64,000 nucleotides of DNA from Bacillota bacterium (GCA_023412665.1 JAEZCA010000041.1:2058-66057); one strand, 5' to 3'. Positions 13,416-28,048 are shown, counted from the stretch's first letter. Notes: generated by a model from the sequence alone, not told the origin. Translations and numbers: made by a program.

Positions 13416-13444
13416 TTGACAAATGAAAATATTGGCATTATACT
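13416..13444 (+). promoter_or_regulatory. Sigma-A-type promoter candidate upstream of the TetR gene and che operon
   Basis: TTGACA (13416-13421), a 17-nt spacer, then TATACT (13439-13444). Confidence 0.45.
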
Positions 13445-13452
13445 TGTTTCAA

Positions 13453-13474
13453 GGTAAGTTAACGATTACTTACC
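13453..13474. promoter_or_regulatory. Palindromic candidate operator
   Basis: GGTAAGT-N8-ACTTACC is a perfect 7-bp inverted repeat. It lies between the -10 box and the RBS of the TetR gene. Confidence 0.3.
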
Positions 13475-13490
13475 AAAGGAGAGAAGTAGT

Positions 13491-14084
13491 ATTAAACCCT
13501 TTTTATCAAGAAAGCAAAGTATTATCATCAGCGCACTGGAAATAATCGATGAGGTCGGCATAGACGGATTATCACTCCGGGAGCTTGCAAAGCGGCAGGG
13601 CATCACGGAGGGTGCGCTGTACAAGCACTTCGACTGTAAAGAAGAAATACTAATTGCGGTTATTGATTATTATGCCCGGTATGATAATAAAATTATGAAC
13701 ACCATTCAAAATGGCGAAATGACGCCAAAAGAGAGTATAGAATTTTTCATCAGCTCAATAGCAGAAACTTGCGAAAGCCATCCTGCCTCAACATGTATAG
13801 TGAATTCTTACGAAGTGTTGACAGAAGACAGCGCGCCGGTCAGAAGAGTCAAGGAAATATTCAATTCGAGATCCGATTACTTAACAGACCTTGTTGAAAA
13901 GGGGCAGAGGGATGGGAGTATCATTGGCGAGTTCTGCAGTGAATACCTTTCAGATATGATTATAGGATTAGTAAGAACAACAATAATAAAGTGGAGGATG
14001 AGCGGCTTCAGCTTTTCATTAAAAGCCAGGACCGTTTCTGCCCTGGAGCTTCTTCTTTCGCGGTTCTTAACAAATAAGCATTAA
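13491..14084 (+). CDS. TetR/AcrR-family transcriptional regulator (probable non-ATG start)
   Basis: The frame is open from 13458, after an in-frame TAA at 13455-13457. It encodes the TetR HTH '...RKQSIIISALEIIDEVGIDGLSLRELAKRQGITEGALYKHFDCKEEIL' upstream of the first ATG (13695). There is no ATG/GTG/TTG in that stretch. ATT 13491 lies 7-9 nt after AAAGGAGAG. Confidence 0.7.
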   Translation: MKPFLSRKQSIIISALEIIDEVGIDGLSLRELAKRQGITEGALYKHFDCKEEILIAVIDYYARYDNKIMNTIQNGEMTPKESIEFFISSIAETCESHPASTCIVNSYEVLTEDSAPVRRVKEIFNSRSDYLTDLVEKGQRDGSIIGEFCSEYLSDMIIGLVRTTIIKWRMSGFSFSLKARTVSALELLLSRFLTNKH

Positions 14085-14097
14085 GGTGAGTGATTAA

Positions 14098-14460
14098 ATG
14101 CCAAGTGTATTAATAGTAGATGATGCTGCCTTCATGAGGTTCAGTATAAGATCGATTCTTGAGAAAAGCGGTTTTACAATTGCCGGTGAAGCTGAAAATG
14201 GCACCGAGTGCATTAAAAAATATAAGGAGCTAAGACCGGATATAGTTACAATGGATATCACCATGCCTGTTATGTCCGGAATCCAAGCGCTAAAGGAAAT
14301 AGTAAGCTTTGATCCCAAGGCCAAGGTAGTAATGGTGTCGGCTATGGGACAGGAAGTACTTGTGAAGGAAGCGGTTCTGGCAGGCGCCAAATCGTTTGTT
14401 GTAAAGCCCTTTAAGGATGAGCATATTGTTCGGACACTTAAAACTCTATTATCCATGTAA
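14098..14460 (+). CDS. cheY: Chemotaxis response regulator CheY
   Basis: 120 aa with 'VLIVDDAAFMR', 'IVTMDITMP', 'VMVSAMG' and 'FVVKPF'. First gene of the che gene order. Confidence 0.9.
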   Translation: MPSVLIVDDAAFMRFSIRSILEKSGFTIAGEAENGTECIKKYKELRPDIVTMDITMPVMSGIQALKEIVSFDPKAKVVMVSAMGQEVLVKEAVLAGAKSFVVKPFKDEHIVRTLKTLLSM

Positions 14461-14492
14461 GCACCACAAGTAATTTGCAAAGGGGATTCGAC

Positions 14493-16556
14493 ATGACAGA
14501 CCGGTGTTCGAACGAGCCATTGCTGGACATGTTTGTATTTGAGACAAGTCAATTAATTGAGCAGCTTGAAGAGTTAACACTGTCAACTGAAAAATCAAGC
14601 TGCTTTACTCAATCCGCCATTGACGAGATTTTCAGAATTATGCATACGATAAAGGGCTCATCAGCGATGATGATGTTTGAAAATATATCGACACTGGCAC
14701 ATTCCATTGAAGACGTATTCTATTTCATTAGGCAAGAAAAGCCTGAGAATATCGATTGTTCTGCTATATTTGATCTAATCCTGGAAGGTATAGATTTTAT
14801 AAAGACAGAGATCGGTAAAATAATGGGAGGTTCTGAAGCCGACGGTGATGCTGCTGAGCTGATTGCAAGTCTGAAGGCCTTCCTGGTTGTCATGAAACAG
14901 AATAATGGAACCGGGAATGAGGAAAAAAGGGAAGAAAAGGTAAAGCAGCAGTATTATATAAGTCCCGAAAAGAATTTTAGTATCAGCCCGAAAAATATCT
15001 TTAAGGCAACCATCTACTTTGAGAATGGATGTGAGATGGAGAATATACGGGCCTACTCAATTGTACATAACATTAAAAGGCTTTCAGATGAAATTTACTA
15101 TATTCCGAATAACATTGTTGAAAATGACGGAAGTGCGGAGCTGATAAGAAAAGACGGATTTACAATATACATCAAATCAGAATGCACATATGAAGAAATA
15201 AATGAATTCCTGGCAGGGACAGTTTTCTTGAAAAAGCTTGAGCTTGCACAGCTTCAGAACGATGATGAGCTGATACGATTATCAGAGGCCGGGTGCTTCT
15301 GTTCCGACAGAGCATCAAATCAATCTTCAGGCAAGGCGGTCAGCGAAGAACGGGATTCAGTCTGCAGGGATGCGCATAATGCAGTATCCCAGAACAGTAT
15401 TATAAGTGTAAGCGTTTCAAAGCTGGACAAGCTCATGGATCTGGTGGGGGAGATGGTCATTGCAGAGGCAATGGTCATTCAAAATCCCGATTTAAAAGGA
15501 CTGGAGCTTGACAGCTTTCAGAAATCTGCCCGTCACCTCAGTAAAATTACCGATGAGATTCAGGATATGGTCATGTCTATACGGATGGTCCCTCTTTCTA
15601 CAACATTCCACAAAATGCACAGGATTGTGCGTGATATGTGCAAGAAGCTGGAGAAGGAAGTTGAGCTAGAAATAATAGGAGAGGAAACCGAGGTTGACAA
15701 GAACATAATTGAACATATATCAGACCCGCTGATGCACCTTGTCAGAAATTCTCTCGATCATGGCATTGAAACCTACGAGGAAAGGATTTCAAGCGGAAAG
15801 CCCCGTGCGGGAAGAATAACGCTGGAGGCCAAAAATGCGGGCAGTGATGTACAGATCATTATCAATGATGATGGAAGAGGGTTAAATAAAGAAAAAATCC
15901 TACAAAAGGCTAGAGATAACGATCTGCTGCATAAGCCTCCTGAGGATATGACAGATAGGGAAATATACAGCCTCATATTCCTTCCGGGCTTTTCCACAAA
16001 GGAAAACGTTACTGAGTTTTCGGGACGTGGCGTAGGTATGGATGTAGTTACCAGGAATATTGAGGCCATAGGTGGTGTTGTCTCCGTAGACAGTATTGCT
16101 GATAAGGGAACAACAATTATCCTGCGAATACCTCTTACACTGGCTATTATCGACGGAATGAATATAAAGGTAGGCAACTCAAGGTATACTATTCCGACAA
16201 TTTCCATAAAAGAATCCTTCAGACCAAAAGAGAGCGATATTATTACAGACCCACAGGGCAATGAAATGATCATGGTGAGGGGCCAGTGCTATCCAATACT
16301 GCGGCTTCATGAAATATACAGGGTAAAAACCTGCTGTACAAAAATCCATGAAGGAATAATAATCATGGTCGAGCAGGATGGTGAAAGCCTCTGTATCTTC
16401 GCAGATGAGCTTCTCGGGCAGCAGCAGGTGGTAGTCAAGTCGCTGCCTGAGTACATAAAACGCTTTAAAGCTATAAAAGGACTTGCAAGCTGCACACTTC
16501 TTGGAGATGGAAGTATCAGTCTGATACTTGATATAGCAGGTTTAATTGGTCTATGA
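14493..16556 (+). CDS. cheA: Chemotaxis histidine kinase CheA
   Basis: P1 Hpt 'FRIMHTIKGSSAMM', 'HLVRNSLDHGIE', 'DDGRGLN', 'GRGVGMDVV', and a C-terminal CheW-like domain. ATG 14493 follows AAAGGGGA. Confidence 0.9.
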   Translation: MTDRCSNEPLLDMFVFETSQLIEQLEELTLSTEKSSCFTQSAIDEIFRIMHTIKGSSAMMMFENISTLAHSIEDVFYFIRQEKPENIDCSAIFDLILEGIDFIKTEIGKIMGGSEADGDAAELIASLKAFLVVMKQNNGTGNEEKREEKVKQQYYISPEKNFSISPKNIFKATIYFENGCEMENIRAYSIVHNIKRLSDEIYYIPNNIVENDGSAELIRKDGFTIYIKSECTYEEINEFLAGTVFLKKLELAQLQNDDELIRLSEAGCFCSDRASNQSSGKAVSEERDSVCRDAHNAVSQNSIISVSVSKLDKLMDLVGEMVIAEAMVIQNPDLKGLELDSFQKSARHLSKITDEIQDMVMSIRMVPLSTTFHKMHRIVRDMCKKLEKEVELEIIGEETEVDKNIIEHISDPLMHLVRNSLDHGIETYEERISSGKPRAGRITLEAKNAGSDVQIIINDDGRGLNKEKILQKARDNDLLHKPPEDMTDREIYSLIFLPGFSTKENVTEFSGRGVGMDVVTRNIEAIGGVVSVDSIADKGTTIILRIPLTLAIIDGMNIKVGNSRYTIPTISIKESFRPKESDIITDPQGNEMIMVRGQCYPILRLHEIYRVKTCCTKIHEGIIIMVEQDGESLCIFADELLGQQQVVVKSLPEYIKRFKAIKGLASCTLLGDGSISLILDIAGLIGL

Positions 16557-16587
16557 AATTTACTGTAAAGAGAAAGGAGATGAAGAC

Positions 16588-17082
16588 ATGGCAGAAAAAA
16601 CAGAAAATGTAGCTGTAATTGAGGAAGATACGCAAAATGGAAGATTTTTAACCTTTTCACTTGGAAACGAAAGCTACGGTATAGAGATTAAATATGTGAC
16701 AGAGATAATTGGTATCCAGGCTATAACCGAAATACCAGAGCTCCCCAAGTATGTCAAGGGTATTATTAATCTGCGGGGAAAGATCATTCCGGTAATGGAT
16801 GTCAGGCTGCGATTTAAAAAAGAACGAAGAGAATACAATGACAGGACATGTATCATTGTAATAGACATTAGTGATCTATCCATAGGTTTGATAGTCGATG
16901 CTGTCTCGGAGGTTCTCACCATACCCGAGGATGGGATTGTAGACCCGCCGAAGATGAACAAGGGAGCGGGCAATAGATATATCAAAAGCATCGGAAAGGT
17001 TGGAAATGATGTTAAGCTGCTGCTTGACTGCGAAAAGCTGCTGACGGAAGAAGAGCTTGAGGACATAAGCGATGCGATATAA
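16588..17082 (+). CDS. cheW: Chemotaxis coupling protein CheW
   Basis: CheW-like fold with 'FLTFSLGNESYGIEIKYVTEI...INLRGKIIPVMDVR'. ATG 16588 follows AAAGGAGA. Confidence 0.9.
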   Translation: MAEKTENVAVIEEDTQNGRFLTFSLGNESYGIEIKYVTEIIGIQAITEIPELPKYVKGIINLRGKIIPVMDVRLRFKKERREYNDRTCIIVIDISDLSIGLIVDAVSEVLTIPEDGIVDPPKMNKGAGNRYIKSIGKVGNDVKLLLDCEKLLTEEELEDISDAI

Positions 17083-17106: not shown

Positions 17107-18939
17107 ATGCGATGGTTTTTTAATTTAAAGATAGCGGCAAAACTTATATCCGGTTTTATCCTGGTTGCCGTAATCGCAGGAATAGTAGGGGTTGTCGGTA
17201 TTATCAACCTTAATGAAATCAGCAGTGCAGATAAGCTTTTGTATGAGGAAAACACGCTGGGGCTGAACCATGCAGGTTATGCTGCCATATATTACCAAAG
17301 AATAAGGTTTAACGCAGTAAAAATGATAGCAGTGGAGGATGCGTTAGTGCAGGATGAATGTATTAGCGGGATAGAAGAATGCATCCTTTTGAGCGAAGAA
17401 AATCTGACGCTGTACAAAGAAGGCACTAACGAAGAAGGACTCATTCTTTTCAATGAATTGATGCCCCAATGGGAGAAATACAAGTCGCTGATAAATGAAA
17501 CAGTTGATTTTATGAGGTCAGGTCAGAAGGAAGAAGCGCAAGCTCTTATTTTTGGTGAAATTGCCGCTGTGGGAAACGGATTGGAGAGTGCTTATGATGA
17601 ATTGTTCAAATATAATGCCGATGGAGGCGATGTCAGGTCAGCGCAAAATACCAAAATGGCACAAAAGGCCATTGTTGTAATGCTCGCTGTAGTTGCTGCT
17701 GGTATTCTGATAGCTATAGTTCTTGGAATCTTCATATCAGGAGCAATAAGCAAGCCGGTGAACAAGATGGTTCTGGCTGCAGACAAGCTTGCTCTGGGAG
17801 ACATCAATGTAAATGTGGATGCGGATACAAAGGATGAAATAGGAGAACTTGCCCAAGCCTTCGGAAGGATGATTGAAAATATCCGGGGACAGGCCCGGGC
17901 GGCGGAAAGGATAGCTGCAGGCGACCTGACTTTAGATGTGGCCGTAAGGTCTGAAAACGATATTCTGGGCAAGAAGCTTTCTGAAATGGTAGAAAAAAAT
18001 AATGAAGTATTGAGAAATATTGCCTCAGCAGCCGAGCAGGTGGCGGCAGGATCAAAGCAGGTATCGGATTCAAGCATGGCACTTTCTCAGGGATCGACGG
18101 AACAGGCGAGCTCGATAGAACAGCTTACGGCATCGCTAGAGGAAATCTCCTCACAAACCAGGCTTAATGCGCAGAATGCAAACCAGGCCAATGAGCTTGC
18201 TGTGCACGCCAAGGAAAACGCTATTCTTGGTAACTCTCAGATGAAGGAAATGCTTAATGCAATGGAAGATATCAATGAGTCATCTGCAAATATTTCCAAG
18301 ATAATAAAGGTTATTGATGACATAGCCTTCCAGACTAACATCCTTGCACTTAACGCCGCAGTCGAAGCTGCAAGGGCGGGACAGCACGGCAAGGGCTTTG
18401 CTGTGGTAGCCGAGGAAGTAAGGAACCTGGCTGCACGTTCTGCCAATGCGGCAAAAGAGACCACAGATATGATAGAAGGTTCAATAAAGAAGACAGAGGG
18501 CGGTACAAAGATTGCGAGGGATACTGCCGGTGCCCTCGATAAAATAGTGGATGGAATTGAAAAGGTAGCTAATCTGGTCAGTGACATTGATATAGCTTCC
18601 AACGAGCAGGCATCAGGCATCGGACAGATAAACCAGGGGATAATGCAGGTATCCCAAGTTGTACAGGCCAACTCAGCGACCTCTGAGGAAAGCGCAGCAG
18701 CCAGCGAGGAGCTTTCAAGCCAGGCTGTACTCCTGAGAGAAATGGTAGGCAAATTCAAGCTGAAGGAAAAAGCCAGAGCAAACGGTAACCTGGACGAGAT
18801 AAGCCCGGAGGTCTTGAGAATGCTTGAGAGCATGTCAAGCAAAAGAAAAGCAGAGGGATATGAAGAGCTACCATCAGGCGAAGGCCTGATGGCAAAAAGC
18901 AAAATCGCACTAAGCGATATTGAATTCGGCAAGTATTAA
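17107..18939 (+). CDS. Methyl-accepting chemotaxis protein (two TM helices, periplasmic helical sensor, HAMP, MA domain)
   Basis: Highly conserved signalling hairpin 'IAFQTNILALNAAVEAARAGQHGKGFAVVAEEVRNLA', plus a HAMP region 'DEIGELAQAFGRM'. Confidence 0.9.
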   Translation: MRWFFNLKIAAKLISGFILVAVIAGIVGVVGIINLNEISSADKLLYEENTLGLNHAGYAAIYYQRIRFNAVKMIAVEDALVQDECISGIEECILLSEENLTLYKEGTNEEGLILFNELMPQWEKYKSLINETVDFMRSGQKEEAQALIFGEIAAVGNGLESAYDELFKYNADGGDVRSAQNTKMAQKAIVVMLAVVAAGILIAIVLGIFISGAISKPVNKMVLAADKLALGDINVNVDADTKDEIGELAQAFGRMIENIRGQARAAERIAAGDLTLDVAVRSENDILGKKLSEMVEKNNEVLRNIASAAEQVAAGSKQVSDSSMALSQGSTEQASSIEQLTASLEEISSQTRLNAQNANQANELAVHAKENAILGNSQMKEMLNAMEDINESSANISKIIKVIDDIAFQTNILALNAAVEAARAGQHGKGFAVVAEEVRNLAARSANAAKETTDMIEGSIKKTEGGTKIARDTAGALDKIVDGIEKVANLVSDIDIASNEQASGIGQINQGIMQVSQVVQANSATSEESAAASEELSSQAVLLREMVGKFKLKEKARANGNLDEISPEVLRMLESMSSKRKAEGYEELPSGEGLMAKSKIALSDIEFGKY

Positions 18940-18946
18940 TAATCAA

Positions 18947-18972
18947 GCCGGAGCGGTATTTGCCGCTCCGGC
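18947..18972 (+). other. Perfect GC-rich hairpin between mcp and cheR (no T-tract)
   Basis: GCCGGAGCGG-TATTTG-CCGCTCCGGC gives a 10-bp perfect stem, 8 nt after the mcp stop. It is followed by CGGCATAT rather than a U-run. Confidence 0.4.
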
Positions 18973-19031
18973 CGGCATATAGCCATGAGATATATTAGGT
19001 GGAAATGCTGATACTGCGGCGGGTGGAGTAA

Positions 19032-19847
19032 ATGTATACAATTACTGATAGTGAATTTAAGAAGCTGGCTGATTTTATAGAAGCTAATTATGGTATATAT
19101 ATGAAAGATGAGAAGCGTACCCTTTTATCCAGCAGATTGAGCAGTGTTTTACAGCAGTATAACTTTAACAGCTTCAGCGATTATTATAGTTACGTCATTT
19201 CAGATAAATCAGGAAACGCGGCAGCTACACTAATTAACAAAATAACCACCAACCACACCTATTTTATGAGGGAAGCAGACCATTTCCGTTTTTTTAGTGA
19301 GAAGGCTCTACCTTATTTTGCAAGTGTAGTAAGGGAAAAGGATCTGAGGATCTGGAGCGCAGGATGCTCTACAGGTGAAGAACCGTATACGCTGGCAATG
19401 ATACTGGATGAGTTCTTTGGAAAGGAAAAGGTTCTGTGGGACTCCAAGATCCTGGCAACAGACATATCAAGCAAAGTCCTGGATGAAGCCCGCAAGGGTG
19501 TTTACAGTAATGAAGATCTAAAGGACGTCCCTTTGCATTGGAGAAACAATTACTACAAAAAGATTGACAATGATAATTCAATTGTTACGGAAAAGATAAA
19601 GAGCGAGGTAATTTTCAGAAAGTTCAATCTAATGGAAGAGGTATTCCCATTTAAGCGCAAGTTCCATGTGATATATTGCAGAAATGTAATGATATATTTC
19701 AACACCGGGACAAAGCGGGAATTGATTAATAAATTTTACGATTGCATGGAGTATGGAGGATACTTGTTTATAGGTCACTCTGAATCTCTCGCCCGTGAAG
19801 ATACGAAGTTCAAATATATTCTTCCGGCAATATACAGAAAAGAGTAA
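19032..19847 (+). CDS. cheR: Chemotaxis protein methyltransferase CheR
   Basis: 271 aa with 'TTNHTYFMRE' and the SAM-binding 'RIWSAGCSTGEEPYTLAM'. Confidence 0.9.
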   Translation: MYTITDSEFKKLADFIEANYGIYMKDEKRTLLSSRLSSVLQQYNFNSFSDYYSYVISDKSGNAAATLINKITTNHTYFMREADHFRFFSEKALPYFASVVREKDLRIWSAGCSTGEEPYTLAMILDEFFGKEKVLWDSKILATDISSKVLDEARKGVYSNEDLKDVPLHWRNNYYKKIDNDNSIVTEKIKSEVIFRKFNLMEEVFPFKRKFHVIYCRNVMIYFNTGTKRELINKFYDCMEYGGYLFIGHSESLAREDTKFKYILPAIYRKE

Positions 19848-19858: not shown

Positions 19859-20884
19859 GTGAATACAAAAAAACCAGTAAAAGTGCTGGTGGTTGATGAC
19901 AGCATCGTTTTTCGGGAGGTTTTGGCAAGGGGGATATCCTGCGATCCTGGAATTATAGTTGTTGCTGTGGCAAAGGATCCATTTGAAGCCAGAGATAAAA
20001 TAATCCAGTTCGATCCGGATGTAATGACCTGCGATGTGGAAATGCCTAAAATGAACGGTATAGAATTCATCAGAAGGCTAATGCCGCAGCATCCCATTCC
20101 GGTCATTGTTGTAAGCGCCGCCAGCAATGCGGTCTTTGAGGCTATGAATGCGGGTGCGGTTGATTTTGTGATGAAGCCTGATGTAAGGTCGGTTATAAGT
20201 GTAGGAAATTTTATGGAAGAGATGATAGAAAAAATAAAAATATGCTCATTGGCAAAGGTCGGTTGTTTAAAAACCAGCCATTCTGCAGTACAAATGAAAA
20301 CCAGTAATCCGGCCAATGCCGACAGAATTATTGCAATCGGTGCTTCTACGGGAGGTACGGAAGCAATCTACAAAATACTTAAATGTTTTCCCGGCAATAT
20401 GCCCGGAGTAGTGCTCGTTCAGCACATCCCACCGGTATTCTCCCGTATGTTTGCTGAAAGGCTTAATAATTCCACTGCCCTTCGGGTAAAAGAGGCTAGC
20501 ACAGGAGACTGTCTGGAAATCGGGAGCGTATTGGTGGCACCTGGAGATCGTCATATGATGGTCAGAAGGTTTGGAGGCAAATATAAAGTAGAATGCTTTG
20601 AGGGCGAGAAGGTGAATGGCCACCGCCCGTCTGTGGATATTTTGTTTGAATCCGTGGCAAAGGAAGCCGGTGACAAGGCAGTTGGCATCATACTCTCAGG
20701 TATGGGCTATGATGGAGCAAAGGGCTTGCTTTCAATGAGGAAAAGGGGCGCAAGGACAATAGGACAGGATGAAGGCTCCTCTGTCGTTTATGGCATGCCC
20801 AAGGTGGCATTTAACATAGGAGCAGTTGAAAAACAAGCACCCCTTGAGGACATACCGGCGCTTGTACAATCAATGCTTGGCTAA
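19859..20884 (+). CDS. cheB: Protein-glutamate methylesterase/deamidase CheB (REC + esterase)
   Basis: REC 'VLVVDDS...VMTCDVEMPKMNG'. Catalytic domain 'IGASTGG', 'GHRPSVD' and 'GMGYDGA'. GTG start. Confidence 0.9.
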   Translation: MNTKKPVKVLVVDDSIVFREVLARGISCDPGIIVVAVAKDPFEARDKIIQFDPDVMTCDVEMPKMNGIEFIRRLMPQHPIPVIVVSAASNAVFEAMNAGAVDFVMKPDVRSVISVGNFMEEMIEKIKICSLAKVGCLKTSHSAVQMKTSNPANADRIIAIGASTGGTEAIYKILKCFPGNMPGVVLVQHIPPVFSRMFAERLNNSTALRVKEASTGDCLEIGSVLVAPGDRHMMVRRFGGKYKVECFEGEKVNGHRPSVDILFESVAKEAGDKAVGIILSGMGYDGAKGLLSMRKRGARTIGQDEGSSVVYGMPKVAFNIGAVEKQAPLEDIPALVQSMLG

Positions 20885-20899: not shown

Positions 20900-21367
20900 A
20901 TGGAGATAGTTGTTGGCATAGGGGAATATGCAATATCAAATAAAAGCGATGTAATTAAAACATATGCACTGGCATCCTGCATTGCTGTGACCGTATACAG
21001 TCCAAAAAGTAAATCGGCCGGAATGGCGCATATAGTACTTCCTTCACCGGGGGATACAAGAATGGATATGTCGCGTCCATGCTATTATGCAAATATTGCT
21101 GTACCGTTTCTTATCGGGGAAATATGCAAAAGCTTCGGATGCTCAAAGGATGAGCTACAGATAAGTATTTTTGGCGGCGCTGATTCTGTTAGGAAAGAAG
21201 ATGTCTTCAAAATCGGAGCAAGGAACATAAAGGCGGTAAAGAGCGCCATTAATAGCTTGAAGCTGACATGCGGTATTTCAGAGGTAGGCGGAACAAACAG
21301 CAGGACTATTGAATTGGATTCGGAAACAGGCAGGATAAAGGTGGTAAGACAGCCACTTGTGTTATGA
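20900..21367 (+). CDS. cheD: Chemoreceptor glutamine deamidase CheD
   Basis: 155 aa with 'ALASCIAVTVY...GMAHIVLP' and 'IFGGA'. Sits in the typical post-cheB position. Confidence 0.85.
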   Translation: MEIVVGIGEYAISNKSDVIKTYALASCIAVTVYSPKSKSAGMAHIVLPSPGDTRMDMSRPCYYANIAVPFLIGEICKSFGCSKDELQISIFGGADSVRKEDVFKIGARNIKAVKSAINSLKLTCGISEVGGTNSRTIELDSETGRIKVVRQPLVL

Positions 21368-21388: not shown

Positions 21389-23284
21389 ATGTTCAATAAA
21401 CTAACTGCGGAAGAGGAGCTGAGAAGGTACAAGCTTCTATCAGAAAATGCCAATGACATTATACTTTTTTCGGATGCTGACGGCTTTGTGACGGAGGTTA
21501 ATGCGGCGGCCATCAGAGCTTTTGGATATAGCAGGGAGGAGCTTGTCGGTAAGCCTATATTCTATCTGGTAAGCCCTGATCCGAAAGCGCCGGTTGTTGC
21601 CGGACCCTATCAGGAAAATTCAGGGGGCATATATTATGAAGCCATGGCTTTCCGTAAGGATGGAACTGCTTTTACAGCAGAAGTGAGTATGCAGGGCACA
21701 GGAACAGGAAAAGACTTACTGCTCATTGCCATATTACGTGATGTGACCGAAAGAAAACGAATAAATGATGAATTAAAGAGAGCAAAGGAGTCGGCGGAGG
21801 CTGCAAACCGCGCAAAAAGTGAATTCCTGGCAAATATGAGCCATGAGATACGCACGCCGCTTAACGGTATTATAGGCATGATTGGCCTGACATTGCTGAC
21901 TGAGCTAAACAGCGAACAGAAGGATAATCTCTGCACAGCAAAGAACTGCGCAAATAATCTTTTAAATCTGATAAACGACATTCTGGATTTTTCAAAAATA
22001 GAGGCTGGAATGCTTACATTAGAAAACGTTAACTTCAATATCAGGGAGTTGATTGAGCAGACAACCAGGACACACATAGTAAAAGCTGCTAAAAAGGGCT
22101 TGATATTTAACTGTAGTATAGACGATAATATTCCTCAGGTGATAAACGGAGATTCCCACAGGCTCAGGCAGATATTGAGCAATCTCCTCGGAAACGCAGT
22201 AAAGTTCACTGATTCAGGCAGTGTCAGTATTGCTGCTAGTCTTTTGAAAAGCTATGATGAGGCTCTGGAGCTAGAATTCCGGATATCGGATACAGGTATC
22301 GGGATACCGCAAGAGGGTATGCACAAGCTGTTCAGCTCCTTTACTCAAGTAGACAGCTCACACACAAGAAAATACGGAGGTACCGGTCTGGGGCTTGCTA
22401 TATCAAAACAGCTTTCAGAGAAAATGGGTGGATCCATAAGTGTAAAAAGCACGGTGAACCAGGGGAGTGAATTCAGCTTTACAATCAAGGTTACACAGGG
22501 CGTTTCCGCCGACATAGTACATAAGGATATAAATCAGATTAAAAAAACCAGGGAGCCATTGAGAATATTGCTTGTCGAGGACGACCAGATAAACCAGTAT
22601 GTAACAAGACGCATGCTTCTGGAAAAAGGCCATGAGGTAGTGACTGCCGACAACGGGGTCATTGCGCTGGAAATACTGGACAAGGAATGTATAGATGTTA
22701 TATTGATGGATATTCAAATGCCCGGTATGGACGGTATTGAAGCTACTAGAAGAATAAGAAGGCAGGAAAGGATTTTAGGTGGCCATATACCGATAATTGC
22801 CCTTACTGCTTATGCTCTTAAAGGAGACAGGGAGAAATTCTTATCAGCGGGCATGGATGAATACCTGACCAAGCCGGTGCAAATAAATGATCTGTTAAGT
22901 GCCGTTGAGCGTGTGTCAGAAATTATAGTGAGTAAAAAACACATCACCAGAGCTCAGGCTGACATGGGTTATGAAGATGAAAACAGAAGTACCGGAAACA
23001 ATACCGGGTATATAAAAAGCATAGAACTTTTATTACACGAAATTGAAGACAAAATCAGATTACTGGAGGATGCCTTCAGTAGAAAGGAATTATCCGTCAT
23101 AGAAAAATATGCCCATGCGGTCAAAAAGCATGCCTGGGATATAAGTGCAGTCGGGTTGCGGAGCGCTGCATTTAAGGTAGAGCTTGCTATTAGGAGAGGA
23201 AATATTGCAGAAGCATCTGAGCTTTTTAAATGTGTTGTAGATGAGTTTCAAAGCACTAAGATTAATTTAATTAGATTTCAATAA
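21389..23284 (+). CDS. Hybrid sensor histidine kinase (PAS - HisKA - HATPase_c - REC - Hpt-like)
   Basis: PAS 'FSDADGFVTEVNAAAIRAFGYSREELVGKPI', H-box 'MSHEIRTPLNGIIG', 'GGTGLGLAISK', REC 'ILLVEDDQIN...ILMDIQMPGMDG...ALTAYA...TKP', and C-terminal 'YAHAVKKHA' (HxxK Hpt-like). Confidence 0.85.
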   Translation: MFNKLTAEEELRRYKLLSENANDIILFSDADGFVTEVNAAAIRAFGYSREELVGKPIFYLVSPDPKAPVVAGPYQENSGGIYYEAMAFRKDGTAFTAEVSMQGTGTGKDLLLIAILRDVTERKRINDELKRAKESAEAANRAKSEFLANMSHEIRTPLNGIIGMIGLTLLTELNSEQKDNLCTAKNCANNLLNLINDILDFSKIEAGMLTLENVNFNIRELIEQTTRTHIVKAAKKGLIFNCSIDDNIPQVINGDSHRLRQILSNLLGNAVKFTDSGSVSIAASLLKSYDEALELEFRISDTGIGIPQEGMHKLFSSFTQVDSSHTRKYGGTGLGLAISKQLSEKMGGSISVKSTVNQGSEFSFTIKVTQGVSADIVHKDINQIKKTREPLRILLVEDDQINQYVTRRMLLEKGHEVVTADNGVIALEILDKECIDVILMDIQMPGMDGIEATRRIRRQERILGGHIPIIALTAYALKGDREKFLSAGMDEYLTKPVQINDLLSAVERVSEIIVSKKHITRAQADMGYEDENRSTGNNTGYIKSIELLLHEIEDKIRLLEDAFSRKELSVIEKYAHAVKKHAWDISAVGLRSAAFKVELAIRRGNIAEASELFKCVVDEFQSTKINLIRFQ

Positions 23285-23310: not shown

Positions 23311-23709
23311 ATGTTAAGGATACTTATAGCAGAAGATGATCTTGCAAGCAGAAGGTTTTTGTCGAAGTTTTTATCGGCATACGGCGAATGTGATATAACC
23401 ATAGATGGAATGGAGGCGCTGGAAGCCTTCATGATATCCTGGGATGAAGGAAGGCCGTATGATTTGATATGTCTGGATATAATGATGCCTGAACTGGATG
23501 GTATAAAGACACTTCGTACTATCAGAGATATAGAAAACCAGAAAGGTATCGAAGAATCCAAACGTGTCAAAATCATAATGACCACAGCGCTTAATGATAA
23601 GGACAGTATATTGAATGCGTTTGACACAGGCTGTGAGGCATATGCAGGAAAGCCTATTGATACAAAAAAGCTAATTGAGGTCATGATGAAGCTTGAGCTG
23701 ATAAAATAA
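23311..23709 (+). CDS. Single-domain response regulator (REC only), paralog of 12931-13329
   Basis: 'ILIAEDD', 'LICLDIMMPELDG', 'MTTAL' and 'AGKP'. ATG 23311 lies 7 nt after AAAGGAG. Confidence 0.85.
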   Translation: MLRILIAEDDLASRRFLSKFLSAYGECDITIDGMEALEAFMISWDEGRPYDLICLDIMMPELDGIKTLRTIRDIENQKGIEESKRVKIIMTTALNDKDSILNAFDTGCEAYAGKPIDTKKLIEVMMKLELIK

Positions 23710-23749: not shown

Positions 23750-24115
23750 ATGCGAAAAAAAATTATCGCAGCAGATGATGAAAGAGCGTTGAGGTTACTT
23801 GTGTCAGGGACACTTGAGATATGTGATTATCTGGTCATTGAGGCAGAGAACGGTTTACAGGCATTGGAACTGGCTCGGCAGGAAAAACCGGATCTGATCA
23901 TACTGGATGTAATGATGCCCGGGATGTCGGGACTGGAGGTTTGTAAGCATATTAAAACAGATCCGGACTTACAGGGGACAAAGGTTCTCATACTGACTGC
24001 AAAAGGGCAGCAGAGCGACAAAGAGGCAGCAAAAGAGGTAATGGCCGACTGCTACCTGTCAAAGCCCTTTAGCCCGGCGATCCTTCTTGCAATAGTAGAA
24101 GAGGTGCTTGGATGA
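23750..24115 (+). CDS. Single-domain response regulator (REC only)
   Basis: 121 aa with 'IIAADDE', 'LIILDVMMPGMSG', 'ILTAKG' and 'LSKPF'. Confidence 0.85.
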   Translation: MRKKIIAADDERALRLLVSGTLEICDYLVIEAENGLQALELARQEKPDLIILDVMMPGMSGLEVCKHIKTDPDLQGTKVLILTAKGQQSDKEAAKEVMADCYLSKPFSPAILLAIVEEVLG

Positions 24116-24141
24116 AATAGAATCCACTATGAGAGGTAAAA

Positions 24142-26400
24142 ATGACTGAACACAATACATACCCTGAGAATAATGGCGAATACAGCAGAAGAATTGAATT
24201 AGAAAGAATCAATACATCCCTGCTTGAAAGCCGGGAAAATATCCGCCTGCTCCTGGATTCTACCGCCGAAGCGATTTATGGTGTAGATATGGAGGGGAAG
24301 TGCACCTTCTGTAATAAAAGCTTCCTAATGATGATGGGTTATACCTGCGAAGAAGAGCTGATTGGTAAGAACATGCATCAGATGATACATTATATGTATG
24401 ATGATGGGATGGCTATCCCGCAGGAGGCATGTGAGATTTACAAAGCCTTCATAAACGGGCAAGGTACTCATAGAGAAGATGAGGTGTTCTACAGAGCCGA
24501 CGGAACGAGAGTTCCTGTTGAGTACCACTCCTACCCCCAGATAAAAAACGGCAAGGTAGTAGGGGCTGTAGTAACATTTATGGATATAACGGAAAGGAAA
24601 AAGGCAAGGGATGAAATATTAAAGGCAAATGAACAGCTGGAAGCTATAAATGATCAGCTACAGGAAAAACAGTACGCCCTTGAGGAGCAGAACACGCTTA
24701 TTGAGGAGCTGAACTCACAGCTGGAGGATGAAAACATCAGATACCTGCAGCAAAAAGAAATACTACAGGCCATAATAGATTCTCTGGGCGCAGGAATCCT
24801 GATGGTGGATACTGAAGGCAGGGCAATGTTCATCAATAATGCATGGAAGGAGCTTTTCAGTTATCTGGATATAGGCGTAGAATTAAAGCCCAATGATAAT
24901 TTCTATATAAATATTGACGGTTTTCCAAATACAAGAGAGATTATAAGAAGCATGCTGTATGGCATGGAAAACGGGCAGGAAGAAACCCAAAAGCTGTTGG
25001 AGCTGCTGGGTGACAACGTAAAAAGGTATAACTGCGACCTGGAGCAGGTATACCCTGTAAAAAGATTCCTGAATATTTACTCAAATCCATGTATAAGCAG
25101 TACAAATCATAGCTTTGGACGTGTGTATGTCATTAGGGATATATCTCACCAAAAGGGAGTAGACAAGCTTAAAACGGAGCTGATAAGTACCGTAAGCCAT
25201 GAGCTGAGGACTCCGATGAGCAGTATCCTTGGATTTTCAGAGCTTTTGTTGACCAGGGAGCTTACCGGAGAACGCAGTAAGGAATATGTTGGCATTATTA
25301 ATTCGGAGGCAAAAAGACTTACAGAGCTTATAAATGATTTTCTCGATATACAGAGGATGGAGGACGGCAAACAGGAGTTCAGCAAACAACTCAGTTCCAT
25401 AAGTACAATTATTGAGGAAGCCTTAAAGCTTTTTAAAGATAATGAGGACATACACAACATCATATACAACAAAGACTCTGCGAAAGATTACAAGGTTTAC
25501 TGCGACAGGAGTAAAATACTCCGGGTCATTACAAACCTGTTATCAAATGCAGTTAAGTATTCTCCCGGCGGCGGAGATATAGCAGTGCGCATGGAGCCTT
25601 CAAATGGGGACATCCTTGTAAGCGTGGAGGATCATGGCTTGGGTATTCCACAGGATGCCGTAAGCAAGCTTTTTACAAAATTCTACCGAGTAGATAATGA
25701 CGACCGAAGAAAAATAGGTGGCACCGGCCTTGGACTGGCCATATGCAAAGAAATCATAAAAGCCCATGACGGGCAAATCGGAGTCAACTCCGACTATGGA
25801 AGGGGCAGTACCTTCTGGTTCACCCTTCCTTGTTTCAATGTGTGTAGTAATGTAACCGAAGCAGCGGTAAAGACCGATCATTCTTCAGGATGCTTTTTTG
25901 ATTTGCTTATAATAGAGAATGACATATCGACTGTTAAGCTTATCAAAGAGGTACTAAAGGACGAGAAGCTGAAGATACATGATACAGGCAGCGGCGAGGA
26001 AGCTTTGGAGCTGTTATTGAAAAACAATTATAAAATTGTACTGCTTGATATCGCACTAAACGGTCAAATGAGCGGATGGGATGTCATTAGGGAGTTTAAA
26101 AAAAATAGGGCCACTACGGGCACACCTATCGTCATTATAAGCGCTTATGAAAATAAATCCATTGCTTCAGAGCGCGGGATAAACGACTATCTGGTCAAGC
26201 CCTTTGAACCGGATCAGCTTCTGAACGCTATAAATAAAGCACTGGACGGCAAGCTGGACTCGGGGAAGACGGTAGGAAACGGGAACGGTCTTACAAATAT
26301 GGTATCTAAAATGTTGGGCGGCTACAACATAGAAGTCAAGCACGTTGATCACTCCGAGAATATTCTAATTATTACGCTGAACAGGGAAGAAGGAAAATAA
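24142..26400 (+). CDS. Sensor histidine kinase with PAS, coiled coil, a second sensory region, HisKA/HATPase_c and a C-terminal REC-like domain
   Basis: PAS 'IYGVDMEGKCTFCNKSFLMMMGY', H-box 'VSHELRTPMSSILG', 'NLLSNAVKYSP', 'GGTGLGLAICK' and REC-like 'LLIIENDIS...VLLDIAL...ISAY...VKPF'. Confidence 0.85.
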   Translation: MTEHNTYPENNGEYSRRIELERINTSLLESRENIRLLLDSTAEAIYGVDMEGKCTFCNKSFLMMMGYTCEEELIGKNMHQMIHYMYDDGMAIPQEACEIYKAFINGQGTHREDEVFYRADGTRVPVEYHSYPQIKNGKVVGAVVTFMDITERKKARDEILKANEQLEAINDQLQEKQYALEEQNTLIEELNSQLEDENIRYLQQKEILQAIIDSLGAGILMVDTEGRAMFINNAWKELFSYLDIGVELKPNDNFYINIDGFPNTREIIRSMLYGMENGQEETQKLLELLGDNVKRYNCDLEQVYPVKRFLNIYSNPCISSTNHSFGRVYVIRDISHQKGVDKLKTELISTVSHELRTPMSSILGFSELLLTRELTGERSKEYVGIINSEAKRLTELINDFLDIQRMEDGKQEFSKQLSSISTIIEEALKLFKDNEDIHNIIYNKDSAKDYKVYCDRSKILRVITNLLSNAVKYSPGGGDIAVRMEPSNGDILVSVEDHGLGIPQDAVSKLFTKFYRVDNDDRRKIGGTGLGLAICKEIIKAHDGQIGVNSDYGRGSTFWFTLPCFNVCSNVTEAAVKTDHSSGCFFDLLIIENDISTVKLIKEVLKDEKLKIHDTGSGEEALELLLKNNYKIVLLDIALNGQMSGWDVIREFKKNRATTGTPIVIISAYENKSIASERGINDYLVKPFEPDQLLNAINKALDGKLDSGKTVGNGNGLTNMVSKMLGGYNIEVKHVDHSENILIITLNREEGK

Positions 26401-26401
26401 A

Positions 26402-28048
26402 ATGAAAAATGATCAAATCAACAGAGTAATGGAGTCAGCCAGAGAGGTGTATATAACGGAGCTTGATGTAAGGACTTCTGAGCTTGAGAGCTTTATCAAT
26501 GCTTGCGGAGAATTTACCGAGGCCGATATCAACAGGCTAGAGAGGTTCTTTCACTCCATGAGCGGGACAGCTGCCACATTGGGGCTGGACTATCTGTCCT
26601 CCATCGGCAGGGAGTGGGAGAATAAGCTGAGGACAAGGAACGGCCCGGTGACTATTGGGGATAGCACCATAGTGGATTGCATGCTGTCAGCGGTGAAAGA
26701 TATTAAGAGGAATATATCCGATATGCACATCCAAAGGGAAGCAACCCGTAAAAGCAATGGGGAAGGTAGGTATGGTCATACGGCAAGAGGCAAGATACTG
26801 CTGGTTGACGATGATATATCAATACTTAAGCTGTTGGAAAATGCGTTTACGATAGAGGGCTATGAGGTTTACATATGCGACGATCCTGTGACAGCAATGG
26901 ATATGATATCCGTTACAATGCCGGACATAATACTACTGGATGTGATGATGCCTGACATAAGCGGATTTGAATTGCTGGGGCAGATCAGGAGTAAAGAGGA
27001 GTATTCGGATATACATATTGTTATTTTAAGCGCAAAGGGCGATATAGACGACAAAATACTAGGTATAAAGTCAGGTGCCGATGATTATATAGTAAAGCCT
27101 TTTGCAATAGGTGAGGTAACAACAAGAGTGGAAATGATCATGAGGAGGTCTAAGAATTACCGGGAAAAACTGATGAAGGATCACGTGACCGGCGCTTGCT
27201 CCAGATATTATTTCAATCTCAGGATATCGGAGGAATTTGAAAGGTATAAAAGATACGGATCAATATTTTCCATAGTTTTTCTGGATATAGATAATTACAA
27301 GCATATCAATGACAATTACGGACACCATACCGGCGAATACGTCCTGAGAAAATACATTTCCAGTATGATTGCGAGTATGAGAGGGTGTGACAGCATTTAC
27401 CGATACGGGTGTGGGGAGTTTATAATTCTTATGCCGGATACACCAGAAGAACAGGCGTATCTTGCTATAGAAAGAATCAGGGGTGAATTGGAAGGCGGAA
27501 CCATTTCTGCCGGAGGGGAGGATTTTTATATTACCTTCAGTGCAGGTATAAATCAAGCCGGTGACAAGAGTGAAAGCGTAGAGAAGCTGATAAGCGACGC
27601 TGACAAAGCTATGTACTTCGCCAAGAAAAGGGGCAGGGACAAAACGGTGATCTATAGCGACAAGATAGATGATATGCTCATAAAGAAAACACTTCTAGTC
27701 GTCGATGATGAAAACACCATATTAAAGCTTCTTACAGAAAGGCTGGCCTGTATCGGATATAATGTCGCTGCCGCGCGGGACGGAAACCATGCTGTGGCAC
27801 TGGCCTCAGAAATCCGGCCGGATGCTGTAGTACTGGATCTGAACCTGCCGGATATAGATGGCTTTGAAGTCTGCAGAAGGATAAAGGAGGGCGCAGGAGC
27901 CTATCCTGTAAAGGTCATCATTCTATTGAAAAAGGAGGAGAAAGAGCATATAGAAAAATGTCTTAGGTCAGAGGCGGACGACTATGTCACAAAGCCATTT
28001 TCCATGGCTAAACTGGAAGAAAGAATAAAGGAAATACTTCATGACTAA
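26402..28048 (+). CDS. Hpt-like - REC - degenerate GGDEF - REC multidomain response regulator
   Basis: N-terminal 'FFHSMSGTAATLGL' (HxxKG-like). REC1 'ILLVDDD...ILLDVMMP...LSAKG...VKPF'. GGDEF fold 'FLDIDNYKHINDNYGHHTGE' but the signature reads 'RYGCGEF', preceded by 'RGCD' exactly 5 residues upstream. REC2 'LLVVDDE...VVLDLNLP...TKPF'. Confidence 0.8.
   Translation: MKNDQINRVMESAREVYITELDVRTSELESFINACGEFTEADINRLERFFHSMSGTAATLGLDYLSSIGREWENKLRTRNGPVTIGDSTIVDCMLSAVKDIKRNISDMHIQREATRKSNGEGRYGHTARGKILLVDDDISILKLLENAFTIEGYEVYICDDPVTAMDMISVTMPDIILLDVMMPDISGFELLGQIRSKEEYSDIHIVILSAKGDIDDKILGIKSGADDYIVKPFAIGEVTTRVEMIMRRSKNYREKLMKDHVTGACSRYYFNLRISEEFERYKRYGSIFSIVFLDIDNYKHINDNYGHHTGEYVLRKYISSMIASMRGCDSIYRYGCGEFIILMPDTPEEQAYLAIERIRGELEGGTISAGGEDFYITFSAGINQAGDKSESVEKLISDADKAMYFAKKRGRDKTVIYSDKIDDMLIKKTLLVVDDENTILKLLTERLACIGYNVAAARDGNHAVALASEIRPDAVVLDLNLPDIDGFEVCRRIKEGAGAYPVKVIILLKKEEKEHIEKCLRSEADDYVTKPFSMAKLEERIKEILHD

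What the first reader, a model, noticed from the sequence alone, without database searches (positions are those of the whole stretch)
13416..28048. TetR-led Che-like operon that runs into a multi-kinase phosphorelay and a c-di-GMP-type output instead of flagellar genes
Seen directly: thirteen same-strand genes with tiny or overlapping gaps. The order is tetR (13 nt) cheY, cheA, cheW, mcp, cheR, cheB, cheD, hybrid HK (PAS-HK-REC-Hpt), REC, REC, PAS-HK-REC, and Hpt-REC-GGDEF*-REC. No fli, flg or mot genes are in the window. Established knowledge: chemosensory pathways with 'alternative cellular functions' exist, for example Wsp, where CheA-like signalling controls a REC-GGDEF protein. Inference: this is such a pathway, but with unusual additions.
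- A TetR regulator is the first cistron.
- Two extra kinases and three extra receiver domains sit between the Che core and the output.
- The GGDEF output appears catalytically degenerate.
I do not recognise this wiring from characterised systems.
Basis: partly seen in the sequence, partly recalled or inferred. Interest (0 to 1): 0.62.

Follow-up and report, generated by a model that had tools for sequence, protein, structure and literature searches.

The report
Clostridial Che operon feeding a phosphorelay
This is a real, intact chemotaxis-type gene cluster of a kind conserved but unstudied in many Clostridia: it starts with a TetR repressor gene, ends in extra kinases and receiver proteins, and here carries a c-di-GMP cyclase whose active site is broken.

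Summary
Thirteen same-strand genes at 13491-28048 have the stated domains. One correction: 13416 is the -35 box of the operon promoter, not the tetR start. tetR has no canonical start codon; ATT at 13491 is the likely start.

This wiring is not a one-off. tetR-cheY-cheA-cheW-mcp-cheR-cheB-(cheD)-hybrid kinase-REC recurs in about half of 80 related loci from many clostridial genera. A conserved promoter and palindrome sit before tetR.

The receptor is heptad class 36H (Tsr-like) with a conserved C-terminal EFGKY. CheB is closer to enteric CheB than to Thermotoga CheB. The system is therefore F7-like, not the Firmicute F1 type.

REC2, HK2 and Hpt-REC-GGDEF-REC follow the core in all five loci where the cyclase gene's surroundings were read. 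Of 31 cyclase orthologues, 27 have GG[DE]EF. The window has GCGEF plus D312E and S509L, and keeps the RxxD I-site.

Other c-di-GMP genes recur in related loci. A paralogous kinase-REC pair lies upstream (10995-13329).

Best reading: a Che-like pathway with a phosphorelay and c-di-GMP-type output. The couplings between modules are inferred from gene order. This is a new variant of a known kind, of moderate interest.

The parts
10995..12923 (+). HKup: PAS-HisKA-HATPase-REC hybrid kinase, a paralogue of HK1. Its C-terminal Hpt-like tail lacks the His.
   Evidence: Pfam. 44% identical to HK1. Gene callers give 642 aa from ATG 10995. Promoter-like site at 10927-10955. No Hpt hit; VLKIKK stands in place of AHxIK.
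12931..13329 (+). RECup: stand-alone receiver, a paralogue of REC1.
   Evidence: Pfam. 45% identical to REC1.
13416..13444 (+). Sigma-A type promoter: TTGACA, 17 nt spacer, TATACT.
   Evidence: Joint-best + strand match (11 of 12) in 19 kb. Most orthologous tetR upstream regions show a TTGACA-like and a TATAAT-like box in a similar position (by eye).
13453..13474 (+). Inverted repeat GGTAAGT-N8-ACTTACC, the probable TetR operator, between the -10 box and the ribosome-binding site.
   Evidence: A GTAAGT-type element lies 27-36 nt before the tetR start in 28 of 33 loci (29 have the motif within 60 nt), against 8.7% of random 60-mers. L063 has a perfect 20-bp palindrome there.
13491..14084 (+). 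tetR (197 codons). No canonical start; ATT is the likely start.
   Evidence: Pfam TetR_N plus TetR_C_4. Alignment with 32 orthologues. Identical sequence in 4 assemblies. Gene callers skip it or call a 121-aa fragment.
14098..14460 (+). cheY
   Evidence: Pfam. 0 of 44 conserved positions changed.
14493..16556 (+). cheA, domains P1-P5.
   Evidence: Pfam. PDB hits to E. coli and T. maritima CheA.
16588..17082 (+). cheW
   Evidence: Pfam. Called as 164 aa in L082 and L088.
17107..18939 (+). mcp: transmembrane 4HB-HAMP receptor with a 36H signalling domain and a C-terminal EFGKY.
   Evidence: Pfam. Gapless alignment to Tsr 267-520. EFGKY in 53 of 59 orthologues.
18946..18973 (+). 11-bp GC-rich hairpin just after the mcp stop codon, with no U-tract.
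   Evidence: Strong hairpins of unrelated sequence sit in most orthologous mcp-cheR gaps.
19032..19847 (+). cheR
   Evidence: Pfam. PDB.
19859..20884 (+). cheB
   Evidence: Pfam. 295 bits to Salmonella CheB; for the catalytic domain alone, 193.7 bits to Salmonella against 119.9 bits to T. maritima.
20900..21367 (+). cheD
   Evidence: Pfam. Thr, Cys and His are spaced as recalled for the T. maritima CheD triad.
21389..23284 (+). HK1: PAS-HisKA-HATPase-REC-Hpt hybrid kinase. It is short here; orthologues run about 650-1290 aa, most 900-1290 aa, with several PAS domains.
   Evidence: hhalign puts its His on the His of the GGDEF protein's Hpt.
23311..23709 (+). REC1: stand-alone receiver. It is the conserved last gene of the family core.
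   Evidence: Pfam. 46-85% identical across genera. Nearest solved relatives are SLN1-type receivers that work with Hpt partners.
23750..24115 (+). REC2: stand-alone receiver.
   Evidence: Pfam. Conserved in L002 and L084-L086.
24142..26400 (+). HK2: PAS-PAS-HisKA-HATPase-REC with no Hpt. The receiver's acidic pocket reads END here, against EDD in three of four orthologues.
   Evidence: Pfam. Alignment.
26402..28048 (+). Hpt-REC-GGDEF-REC protein. A-site is GCGEF with D312E; the I-site RGCD is kept; REC-b has S509L.
   Evidence: AlphaFold model, pLDDT 80.9. Best structural matches are WspR, PleD and DgcR.

Best explanation
This is one member of a conserved, uncharacterised clostridial chemosensory family of 36H / F7-like type.

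Shown:
- A sigma-A type promoter and a palindrome precede tetR and the rest of the operon.
- All Che parts are present: a transmembrane 4HB receptor with a C-terminal EFGKY, CheW, a P1-P5 CheA, CheR, CheB and CheD.
- The catalytic motifs of the kinases and Che enzymes that I checked are intact.

Inferred from gene order, co-conservation and which domains complement each other:
1. TetR represses the operon at the palindrome until an unknown ligand binds.
2. CheA~P passes phosphate to CheY and CheB. It also modulates the cytoplasmic PAS hybrid kinase HK1, directly or through CheY, as CheA3 does with CheS3 in Rhodospirillum centenum.
3. HK1 runs a His-Asp-His-Asp relay through its own Hpt to REC1. 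REC1 is the family's conserved end point.
4. In this subclade a second relay is appended. HK2 has no Hpt and passes phosphate through the N-terminal Hpt of the last protein to that protein's receivers. In most orthologues this would switch on a GG[DE]EF cyclase.
5. In this genome the cyclase site is dead (GCGEF, D312E) while the RxxD I-site survives. The last protein more likely acts as a c-di-GMP-binding or phosphate-buffering adaptor than as a c-di-GMP source.
For: - Domains.
- Family conservation: tetR lies immediately upstream in 26 of 60 loci with enough upstream sequence. HK1 plus REC1 lie immediately downstream in 34 of 67 loci with enough downstream sequence. Named genera include Ruminiclostridium, Anaerocolumna, Clostridium, Anaerovirgula and Formimonas.
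- What follows REC1 in core loci is unrelated housekeeping.
- The extension REC2-HK2-GGDEF protein follows cheR-cheB-(cheD)-HK1-REC1 in the window, L002, L084, L085 and L086.
- Conserved promoter and operator.
- 36H / F7-like type. The gene order matches ancestral F7 (PMC7184735).
- c-di-GMP genes recur in related loci: a DnaJ-GGDEF gene between mcp and cheR (L002, L084), PAS-GGDEF-EAL plus an extra MCP in place of tetR (L012 scanned; L020, L022, L038 and L066 look the same by BLAST), and an HD_5/HD protein (L086).
- Cyclase family: 27 of 31 have GG[DE]EF with RxxD; the window is degenerate.
- Fold nearest WspR, PleD and DgcR.
- A precedent exists for a Che kinase feeding a second hybrid kinase: PMC3868531.
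- The core proteins are under normal constraint.
Against: - No phosphotransfer step was tested, and none can be with these tools.
- A stand-alone CheY, a complete adaptation set and a Tar-like receptor are what a true taxis system would have.
- About half of the related loci lack tetR or HK1-REC1 next to the Che genes.
- The Hpt His of HK1 is replaced in about one third of orthologues, so the relay to REC1 cannot be universal.
- The mcp-cheR hairpin may split the transcript.
- In this genome several peripheral parts deviate at conserved sites: the tetR start codon, HK2 receiver END, the GGDEF site, REC-b S509L, and CheD. Part of the circuit may therefore be inactive.
Confidence: 0.55

Rival explanations
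1. It is an ordinary flagellar chemotaxis system of F7 type acquired by Clostridia. CheY~P acts on the flagellar switch. The kinases, receivers and GGDEF protein are neighbouring two-component genes that take no phosphate or signal from CheA.
For: It has a full taxis-type parts list. That includes a stand-alone CheY, CheR, CheB and CheD, and a transmembrane Tar-like 36H receptor with a pentapeptide-like tail. F7 systems drive flagella in enteric bacteria (PMC7184735). From my own recollection, several carrier genera are described as motile; I did not check this.
Against: HK1-REC1 follow cheB or cheD at short gaps in 34 of 67 loci across genera. A GGDEF gene sits inside the Che block in L002 and L084. 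There are no flagellar genes in the window. According to PMC7184735, ancestral F7 systems in species that also carry F6 do not control the motor.
Confidence: 0.25
2. In this particular genome the circuit is a decaying relic. The sensing core persists, but tetR and the REC2-HK2-GGDEF branch have lost function and do nothing.
For: - tetR has no ATG, GTG or TTG start, and 11 of 34 conserved positions are changed.
- The GGDEF protein deviates at 22 of 167 conserved positions, second most of 31, including G337C, D312E and S509L.
- The HK2 receiver reads END instead of EDD.
- HK1 has only one PAS domain and is far shorter than most orthologues.
- The Hpt His of HKup is lost.
Against: - All 13 reading frames are intact and identical in four independent assemblies.
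- ATT sits at ideal spacing from a strong ribosome-binding site.
- The I-site, the Hpt His and both phospho-acceptor Asp residues of the last protein are kept.
- The kinase H, N and G boxes are intact.
- Deviation counts partly reflect a sparsely sampled sub-branch.
Confidence: 0.15
3. The thirteen genes are a chance pile-up of signalling genes (a 'signalling island') with no shared transcript or function.
For: A 92-nt gap with a strong hairpin separates mcp from cheR. Weak internal promoter-like sites exist. The locus lies between glmM and glmS, where insertions may accumulate.
Against: The order is conserved across many genera and in all five extended loci. In the 19 kb scanned, the only 11-of-12 promoter matches on the + strand are the one before tetR and the one after the cluster; internal + strand sites score 10 of 12 at most. 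Orthologues show overlapping stop and start codons for REC2/HK2 and HK2/GGDEF.
Confidence: 0.05

Closest known systems
Wsp system of Pseudomonas (WspA-F plus WspR)
   Same: A Che-type operon whose last gene encodes a receiver-GGDEF protein. The REC-GGDEF part of the window protein is structurally closest to WspR (3I5A, 3BRE). The WspR-type RxxD I-site is present.
   Different: From established knowledge, Wsp is the ACF class with a 40H receptor, and its CheA-REC hybrid WspE phosphorylates WspR directly. Here the receptor is 36H and CheA has no receiver. Two PAS hybrid kinases, two stand-alone receivers and an Hpt domain intervene. tetR leads the operon, and the cyclase motif is GCGEF.
Che3 cascade of Rhodospirillum centenum (CheA3, CheS3, CheY3)
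   Same: A Che cluster that contains a second hybrid kinase and a single-domain receiver. CheA phosphorylates a receiver of the second kinase, and only that kinase phosphorylates the end receiver (PMC3868531). This is the best mechanistic precedent for CheA to HK1 to REC1.
   Different: It is alphaproteobacterial and CheA3 is itself a hybrid. The paper's abstract mentions no Hpt, tetR or GGDEF protein. Its output is cyst formation.
Ancestral F7 systems (Pseudomonas aeruginosa Che2, Vibrio cholerae cluster III)
   Same: Nearly the same gene order: cheY-cheA-cheW-mcp-cheR-cheD-cheB there, cheB before cheD here. Both have a 36H receptor, CheD and an unknown non-motor function (PMC7184735). From my own knowledge, the Che2 receptor McpB also carries a C-terminal pentapeptide.
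   Different: Those receptors are cytoplasmic PAS-HAMP Aer2 types, and the flanking genes are STAS and serine-phosphatase partner-switching genes. Here the receptor is a transmembrane 4HB type, and the flanks are tetR, a hybrid kinase and a receiver.
PleD and PopA of Caulobacter
   Same: Multi-receiver GGDEF response regulators. NCBIfam's best hit is the PleD family at 294.7 bits, below the 474-bit cut-off. From established knowledge, PopA has a degenerate A-site with a working I-site and acts as a c-di-GMP receptor, which is the model for the window protein.
   Different: The domain order here is Hpt-REC-GGDEF-REC, not REC-REC-GGDEF. The protein carries its own Hpt.

Membership tests
Chemosensory (Che) system | CheA with P1-P5, CheW and an MCP together, plus the adaptation enzymes CheR and CheB. 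| tested here: met
   Pfam hits are all above the curated cut-offs. PDB hits to CheA, CheR and CheB.
F7 class (Wuichet and Zhulin) | Receptor of heptad class 36H. | tested here: met
   Gapless alignment of the signalling domain to E. coli Tsr 267-520. Length offsets appear against a 44H receptor (2CH7) and a Pseudomonas aromatic-acid receptor that I take to be 40H (6S18).
F7 class (Wuichet and Zhulin) | Placement of CheA, CheB and CheR by the class-specific profile models or phylogeny. | not testable with these tools
   The class models are not available here. Indirect support only: CheB scores 295 bits to Salmonella CheB, and its catalytic domain 193.7 bits to Salmonella against 119.9 bits to T. 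maritima. CheA scores 341 bits to E. coli (full length) against 315 bits to T. maritima (P3-P5 construct).
F7 class (Wuichet and Zhulin) | Gene order cheY-cheA-cheW-mcp-cheR-cheD-cheB. | tested here: inconclusive
   Same order except that cheB precedes cheD (PMC7184735).
ACF class / Wsp-like | 40H receptor and a CheA-REC hybrid kinase that directly phosphorylates a REC-GGDEF output. | tested here: not met
   The receptor is 36H. CheA has no receiver. Kinases, receivers and an Hpt lie between the Che core and the GGDEF protein.
Active diguanylate cyclase (GGDEF) | A-site GG[DE]EF plus the guanine-binding Asp. | tested here: not met
   GCGEF and D312E in the window. 27 of 31 orthologues have GG[DE]EF, and all 30 others have G at 337 and D at 312.
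c-di-GMP-binding GGDEF (I-site receptor, PopA-like) | RxxD five residues before the A-site. | tested here: met
   RGCD-SIYRY-GCGEF. Binding itself was not tested.
Multistep phosphorelay (His-Asp-His-Asp) | Hybrid kinase with a receiver, an Hpt domain carrying a His, and a terminal receiver carrying an Asp. | tested here: met
   HK1: HisKA, REC, a weak Hpt (18.6 bits; 19.9-24.9 bits in three of four orthologues scanned) with AHAVKK, then REC1. HK2 (no Hpt) plus the Hpt of the last protein (29-33 bits, FHSMSGTA). Phosphotransfer was not tested.
TetR-family autoregulated operon | TetR_N helix-turn-helix protein encoded next to a palindromic operator that overlaps its own promoter region. | tested here: met
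   TetR_N at 43.8 bits. Inverted repeat at 13453-13474, between the -10 box and the ribosome-binding site. The element is conserved at a fixed position in 28 of 33 loci. Binding was not tested, and the start codon is non-canonical here.

The most novel reading that the evidence does not exclude
Clostridia carry a widespread Che family of proteobacterial F7-like type that has not been described. It is not a motility controller. It is a TetR-gated sensory module whose native output is a His-Asp-His-Asp relay ending in a stand-alone receiver (REC1). c-di-GMP enzymes have been attached to it repeatedly and independently. That would make it a Gram-positive counterpart of Wsp, reached by a different route. 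The window would then show a later step, in which the attached cyclase has turned into a non-catalytic c-di-GMP sensor.
Probability: 0.35. Interest if true: 0.7.

Novelty: new variant of a known kind. Interest (0 to 1): 0.5.

Why it matters
Che-like pathways with non-motility outputs are known almost only from Proteobacteria. In Firmicutes almost nothing is known beyond the F1 flagellar system. This family offers three things:
- A defined, conserved and cultivable test case (Ruminiclostridium, Anaerocolumna, Clostridium) for how a receptor array is coupled to a phosphorelay and to c-di-GMP.
- A possible clue to the still unknown function of ancestral F7 systems.
- A natural series from active to degenerate cyclase, useful for studying how GGDEF enzymes become receptors.

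The TetR operator also gives a simple handle for finding what induces the system.

Tried and rejected
- tetR starting at 13416: rejected, because of the in-frame TAA at 13455 and because 13416 is the -35 box.
- The 109-aa ORF at 28137-28466 as a fourteenth gene: rejected. It overlaps the glmS ribozyme and has no Pfam hit.
- NCBIfam naming: no protein reaches an equivalog cut-off.
- Literature: searches for a described clostridial 36H/F7 system, a TetR-led che operon or the EFGKY tail found nothing relevant. The Wuichet and Zhulin classification paper is not held.
- Motility of carrier species: one search and one paper gave no information.
- The operator as a decayed version with a 4-bp insertion: rejected. 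L001 has a 22-bp element of the same length, so this is a sub-branch variant.
- Sequencing error as the cause of GCGEF or of the missing tetR start: rejected. The same sequences occur in three or more independent assemblies and in a one-residue strain variant.

Full report
**1. Observation**

They are TetR, CheY, CheA (P1-P5), CheW, a 4HB-HAMP MCP, CheR, CheB, CheD, HK1, REC1, REC2, HK2 and a final Hpt-REC-GGDEF-REC protein.
- HK1 is PAS-HisKA-HATPase-REC with a weak C-terminal Hpt. The Hpt scores 18.6 bits here and 19.9-24.9 bits in three of four orthologues scanned.
- hhalign places the HK1 His on the Hpt His of the last protein.
- HK2 is PAS-PAS-HisKA-HATPase-REC.
- The last protein's GGDEF motif reads GCGEF.
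- An AlphaFold model of it (pLDDT 80.9) shows a four-helix bundle, a receiver, a GGDEF domain and a second receiver. Its best structural matches are WspR, PleD and DgcR.

With corrected starts the gaps are 1-40 nt, except 92 nt between mcp and cheR. None of the roughly 55 larger ORFs I scanned across the 64 kb has a flagellar or motor domain.

**2. Corrections**

The stated start, 13416, is the TTG of a TTGACA -35 box. The site TTGACA-17-TATACT at 13416-13444 is one of the two best + strand promoter matches in 19 kb. The frame from 13416 has a TAA at 13455. No ATG, GTG or TTG occurs before 13695, which would remove the DNA-binding domain.

Thirty-two orthologous tetR genes were aligned. In most, the start is an ATG at the position where the window reads AGT ATT. 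ATT (13491) lies 7 nt after AAGGAGAG. The sequence is identical in four independent metagenome assemblies. Their gene callers skip tetR or call only a 121-aa fragment.

A hybrid kinase plus receiver pair lies directly upstream on the same strand with its own promoter-like site (10995-13329). It is 44-45% identical to HK1 and REC1. Downstream, the glmS ribozyme (28180-28397) and glmS mark the end of the cluster.

**3. This is a conserved family**

A genome-collection scan with CheB returned 80 loci at 64-74% identity, all but one from Clostridia or unclassified Bacillota by record title. Mapping the window proteins onto them gave these counts:
- tetR lies immediately upstream of cheY or cheA in 26 of 60 loci with enough upstream sequence. 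Several more have tetR inside a rearranged cluster.
- HK1 plus REC1 lie immediately after cheB or cheD in 34 of 67 loci with enough downstream sequence.
- cheD is present in 19 of those 67.

Named carriers include Ruminiclostridium cellobioparum, Anaerocolumna, Anaerovirgula, Anaerosolibacter, Clostridium species, Petroclostridium and Formimonas. After REC1 the neighbours are unrelated housekeeping genes. REC1 is therefore the conserved end of the core.

Most tetR genes are preceded by TTGACA-like and TATAAT-like boxes, then a palindrome of the GTAAGT...ACTTAC type just before the ribosome-binding site.
- The GTAAGT-type element sits 27-36 nt before the start in 28 of 33 loci, against 8.7% of random 60-mers.
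- In the window it is GGTAAGT-N8-ACTTACC at 13453-13474.

This is the usual layout of a TetR-autoregulated operon. Binding is inferred, not shown.

**4. Class**

The MCP signalling domain aligns without gaps to E. coli Tsr residues 267-520. Tsr is the standard 36H receptor. Length offsets appear against a 44H receptor and a Pseudomonas aromatic-acid receptor that I take to be 40H.
- The best NCBIfam matches are enteric Tcp and Tar and Vibrio Aer2, all below cut-off.
- The CheB catalytic domain scores 193.7 bits to Salmonella CheB against 119.9 bits to T. maritima.
- The MCP ends in ...LSDxEFGKY in 53 of 59 orthologues, after a variable linker. It has aromatic residues at positions 2 and 5, like the NWETF tether. 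Such tails are rare in Clostridiales, at 2.9% of receptors (PMC7390727).
- The gene order nearly matches ancestral F7 clusters, whose function is unknown and is not motor control (PMC7184735).

I therefore call the system 36H / F7-like. It is neither the Firmicute F1 type nor the ACF/Wsp class. Formal class assignment needs models that I do not have.

**5. The extension and the cyclase**

A protein search found about 58 full-length orthologues of the last protein at 42-58% identity. In the four other loci where the cyclase gene's surroundings were read (three contig look-ups and L002), it follows cheR-cheB-(cheD)-HK1-REC1-REC2-HK2. The whole 3' branch is thus conserved in a subclade.

Of 31 aligned orthologues, 27 have GG[DE]EF, and all but one keep RxxD. 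The window protein has these features:
- GCGEF and D312E; all 30 others have G at 337 and D at 312.
- S509L in the second receiver.
- An intact RGCD I-site, the Hpt His and both acceptor Asp residues.
- Deviations at 22 of 167 strongly conserved positions, the second most of 31.

A strain variant that differs by one residue has the same motif.

c-di-GMP genes recur elsewhere in the family:
- A DnaJ-GGDEF gene lies between mcp and cheR in L002 and L084.
- PAS-GGDEF-EAL plus an extra MCP replaces tetR in the R. cellobioparum group. L012 was scanned; the others look the same by BLAST.
- An HD_5/HD protein is present in L086.

**6. State of the circuit in this genome**

I counted deviations from positions that are at least 90% conserved among orthologues.
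- Typical or better: CheY 0 of 44, CheA 8 of 267, CheW 1 of 77, MCP 3 of 184.
- Outliers: TetR 11 of 34 and CheD 6 of 48, and the GGDEF protein.

The HK2 receiver reads END where three of four orthologues read EDD. HK1 has one PAS domain and 631 aa; orthologues run about 650-1290 aa, most 900-1290 aa. The sensing core is under normal constraint, while the periphery is diverging. All frames are nevertheless intact, so I do not call any of them pseudogenes.

**7. Mechanism**

The parts list and its conservation are shown. The links are inferred from domain complementarity and from precedent.
- HK1 carries its own Hpt and is followed by REC1.
- HK2 lacks an Hpt, and the next protein begins with one.
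- In R. centenum, CheA3 phosphorylates a receiver of the hybrid kinase CheS3, and only CheS3 phosphorylates CheY3 (PMC3868531).

The model is as follows. TetR gates transcription. The receptor array controls CheA. CheA, or CheY, modulates HK1 and its relay to REC1. In this subclade a second relay runs from HK2 to the GGDEF protein. Here the last protein cannot make c-di-GMP and probably binds it or buffers phosphate.

Two caveats apply. The Hpt His of HK1 is replaced in about one third of orthologues. A strong hairpin directly after mcp, present with unrelated sequences in most orthologous loci, may lower expression of everything downstream.

**8. Rivals and novelty**

- A plain flagellar taxis system with bystander neighbours remains possible (0.25).
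- Partial decay in this genome is possible (0.15).
- Chance adjacency is unlikely (0.05).

Searches of the held literature found no description of this family. It is a new variant of a known kind, namely Che-like pathways with alternative outputs. It is of moderate interest because it is conserved, it occurs in Gram-positive bacteria, and it can be tested in cultivable species.

Noticed in passing
window 28180-28397: glmS ribozyme (52.7 bits against a gathering score of 37) ahead of glmS (28729-30606). The 109-aa ORF at 28137-28466 overlaps it and is spurious.
   Followed up: yes
window 3882-9194 and 28180-30606: The whole signalling cluster lies between cdaA-cdaR(YbbR)-FAD protein-glmM and glmS. 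So do two minus-strand genes: a hexapeptide transferase (9296-9955) and an AAA_15/AAA_21 ATPase (10057-10800). From my own knowledge, cdaA, cdaR, glmM and glmS are contiguous in Bacillus, so this looks like an insertion. The location is not shared by L084-L086.
   Followed up: partly
window 18925-18939; 59 orthologous MCPs in L001-L080: The receptor ends in ...LSDxEFGKY after a variable linker in 53 of 59 orthologues (57 of 59 end in xFGKY). This looks like a clostridial version of the NWETF CheR/CheB tether. No paper in the library mentions EFGKY in this context.
   Followed up: partly
window 18946-18973; mcp-cheR gaps of L004-L029: A strong hairpin with no sequence conservation sits just after the mcp stop codon in most related loci, some with a short U-run. 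It is probably an attenuator or an mRNA stabiliser that sets the ratio of array proteins to enzymes.
   Followed up: partly
window 13488-13493: tetR has AGT ATT where orthologues have ATG. It would be a rare ATT-initiated gene, or a recently silenced one. The sequence is identical in four assemblies.
   Followed up: yes
HK1 orthologues in 43 loci; window 23100-23284 and 12800-12923: In the C-terminal Hpt-like domain, the motif AFKIELAARRGN is more conserved than the phospho-accepting His. The His is replaced by S, K, N, Q, Y, R or L in about one third of orthologues and in HKup. Some of these domains may be pseudo-Hpt.
   Followed up: partly
window 26250-26397; L002, L084, L085, L086 HK2 C-termini: HK2 has a conserved tail of about 45 residues after its receiver (GxGLT...GIxVKxxxHSGNxLIITLxGEEG) with no Pfam match. 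In L085 most of the receiver appears to be missing from the alignment while the tail is kept.
   Followed up: no
L002 2098-2727 (minus strand): In the closest relative that has the full extension, a phage-integrase-family gene sits divergently upstream of cheY in place of tetR.
   Followed up: partly
L002 7979-9142; L084 76-1239: A DnaJ-GGDEF fusion gene is inserted between mcp and cheR in two related loci. I do not recognise this domain pairing.
   Followed up: no
window 57743-59002 and 63117-63677: A full Y-family polymerase gene (IMS plus IMS_C) and, 4 kb further on, a 186-aa ORF with only the IMS_C domain. The second may be a truncated duplicate.
   Followed up: no
window 39322-44394 and 54652-56738: Two OmpR-type two-component pairs. 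The first is followed by an ABC ATPase and a large FtsX permease. VanY (53673-54647) precedes the second. A second tetR-family gene lies at 47165-47707 on the minus strand.
   Followed up: no
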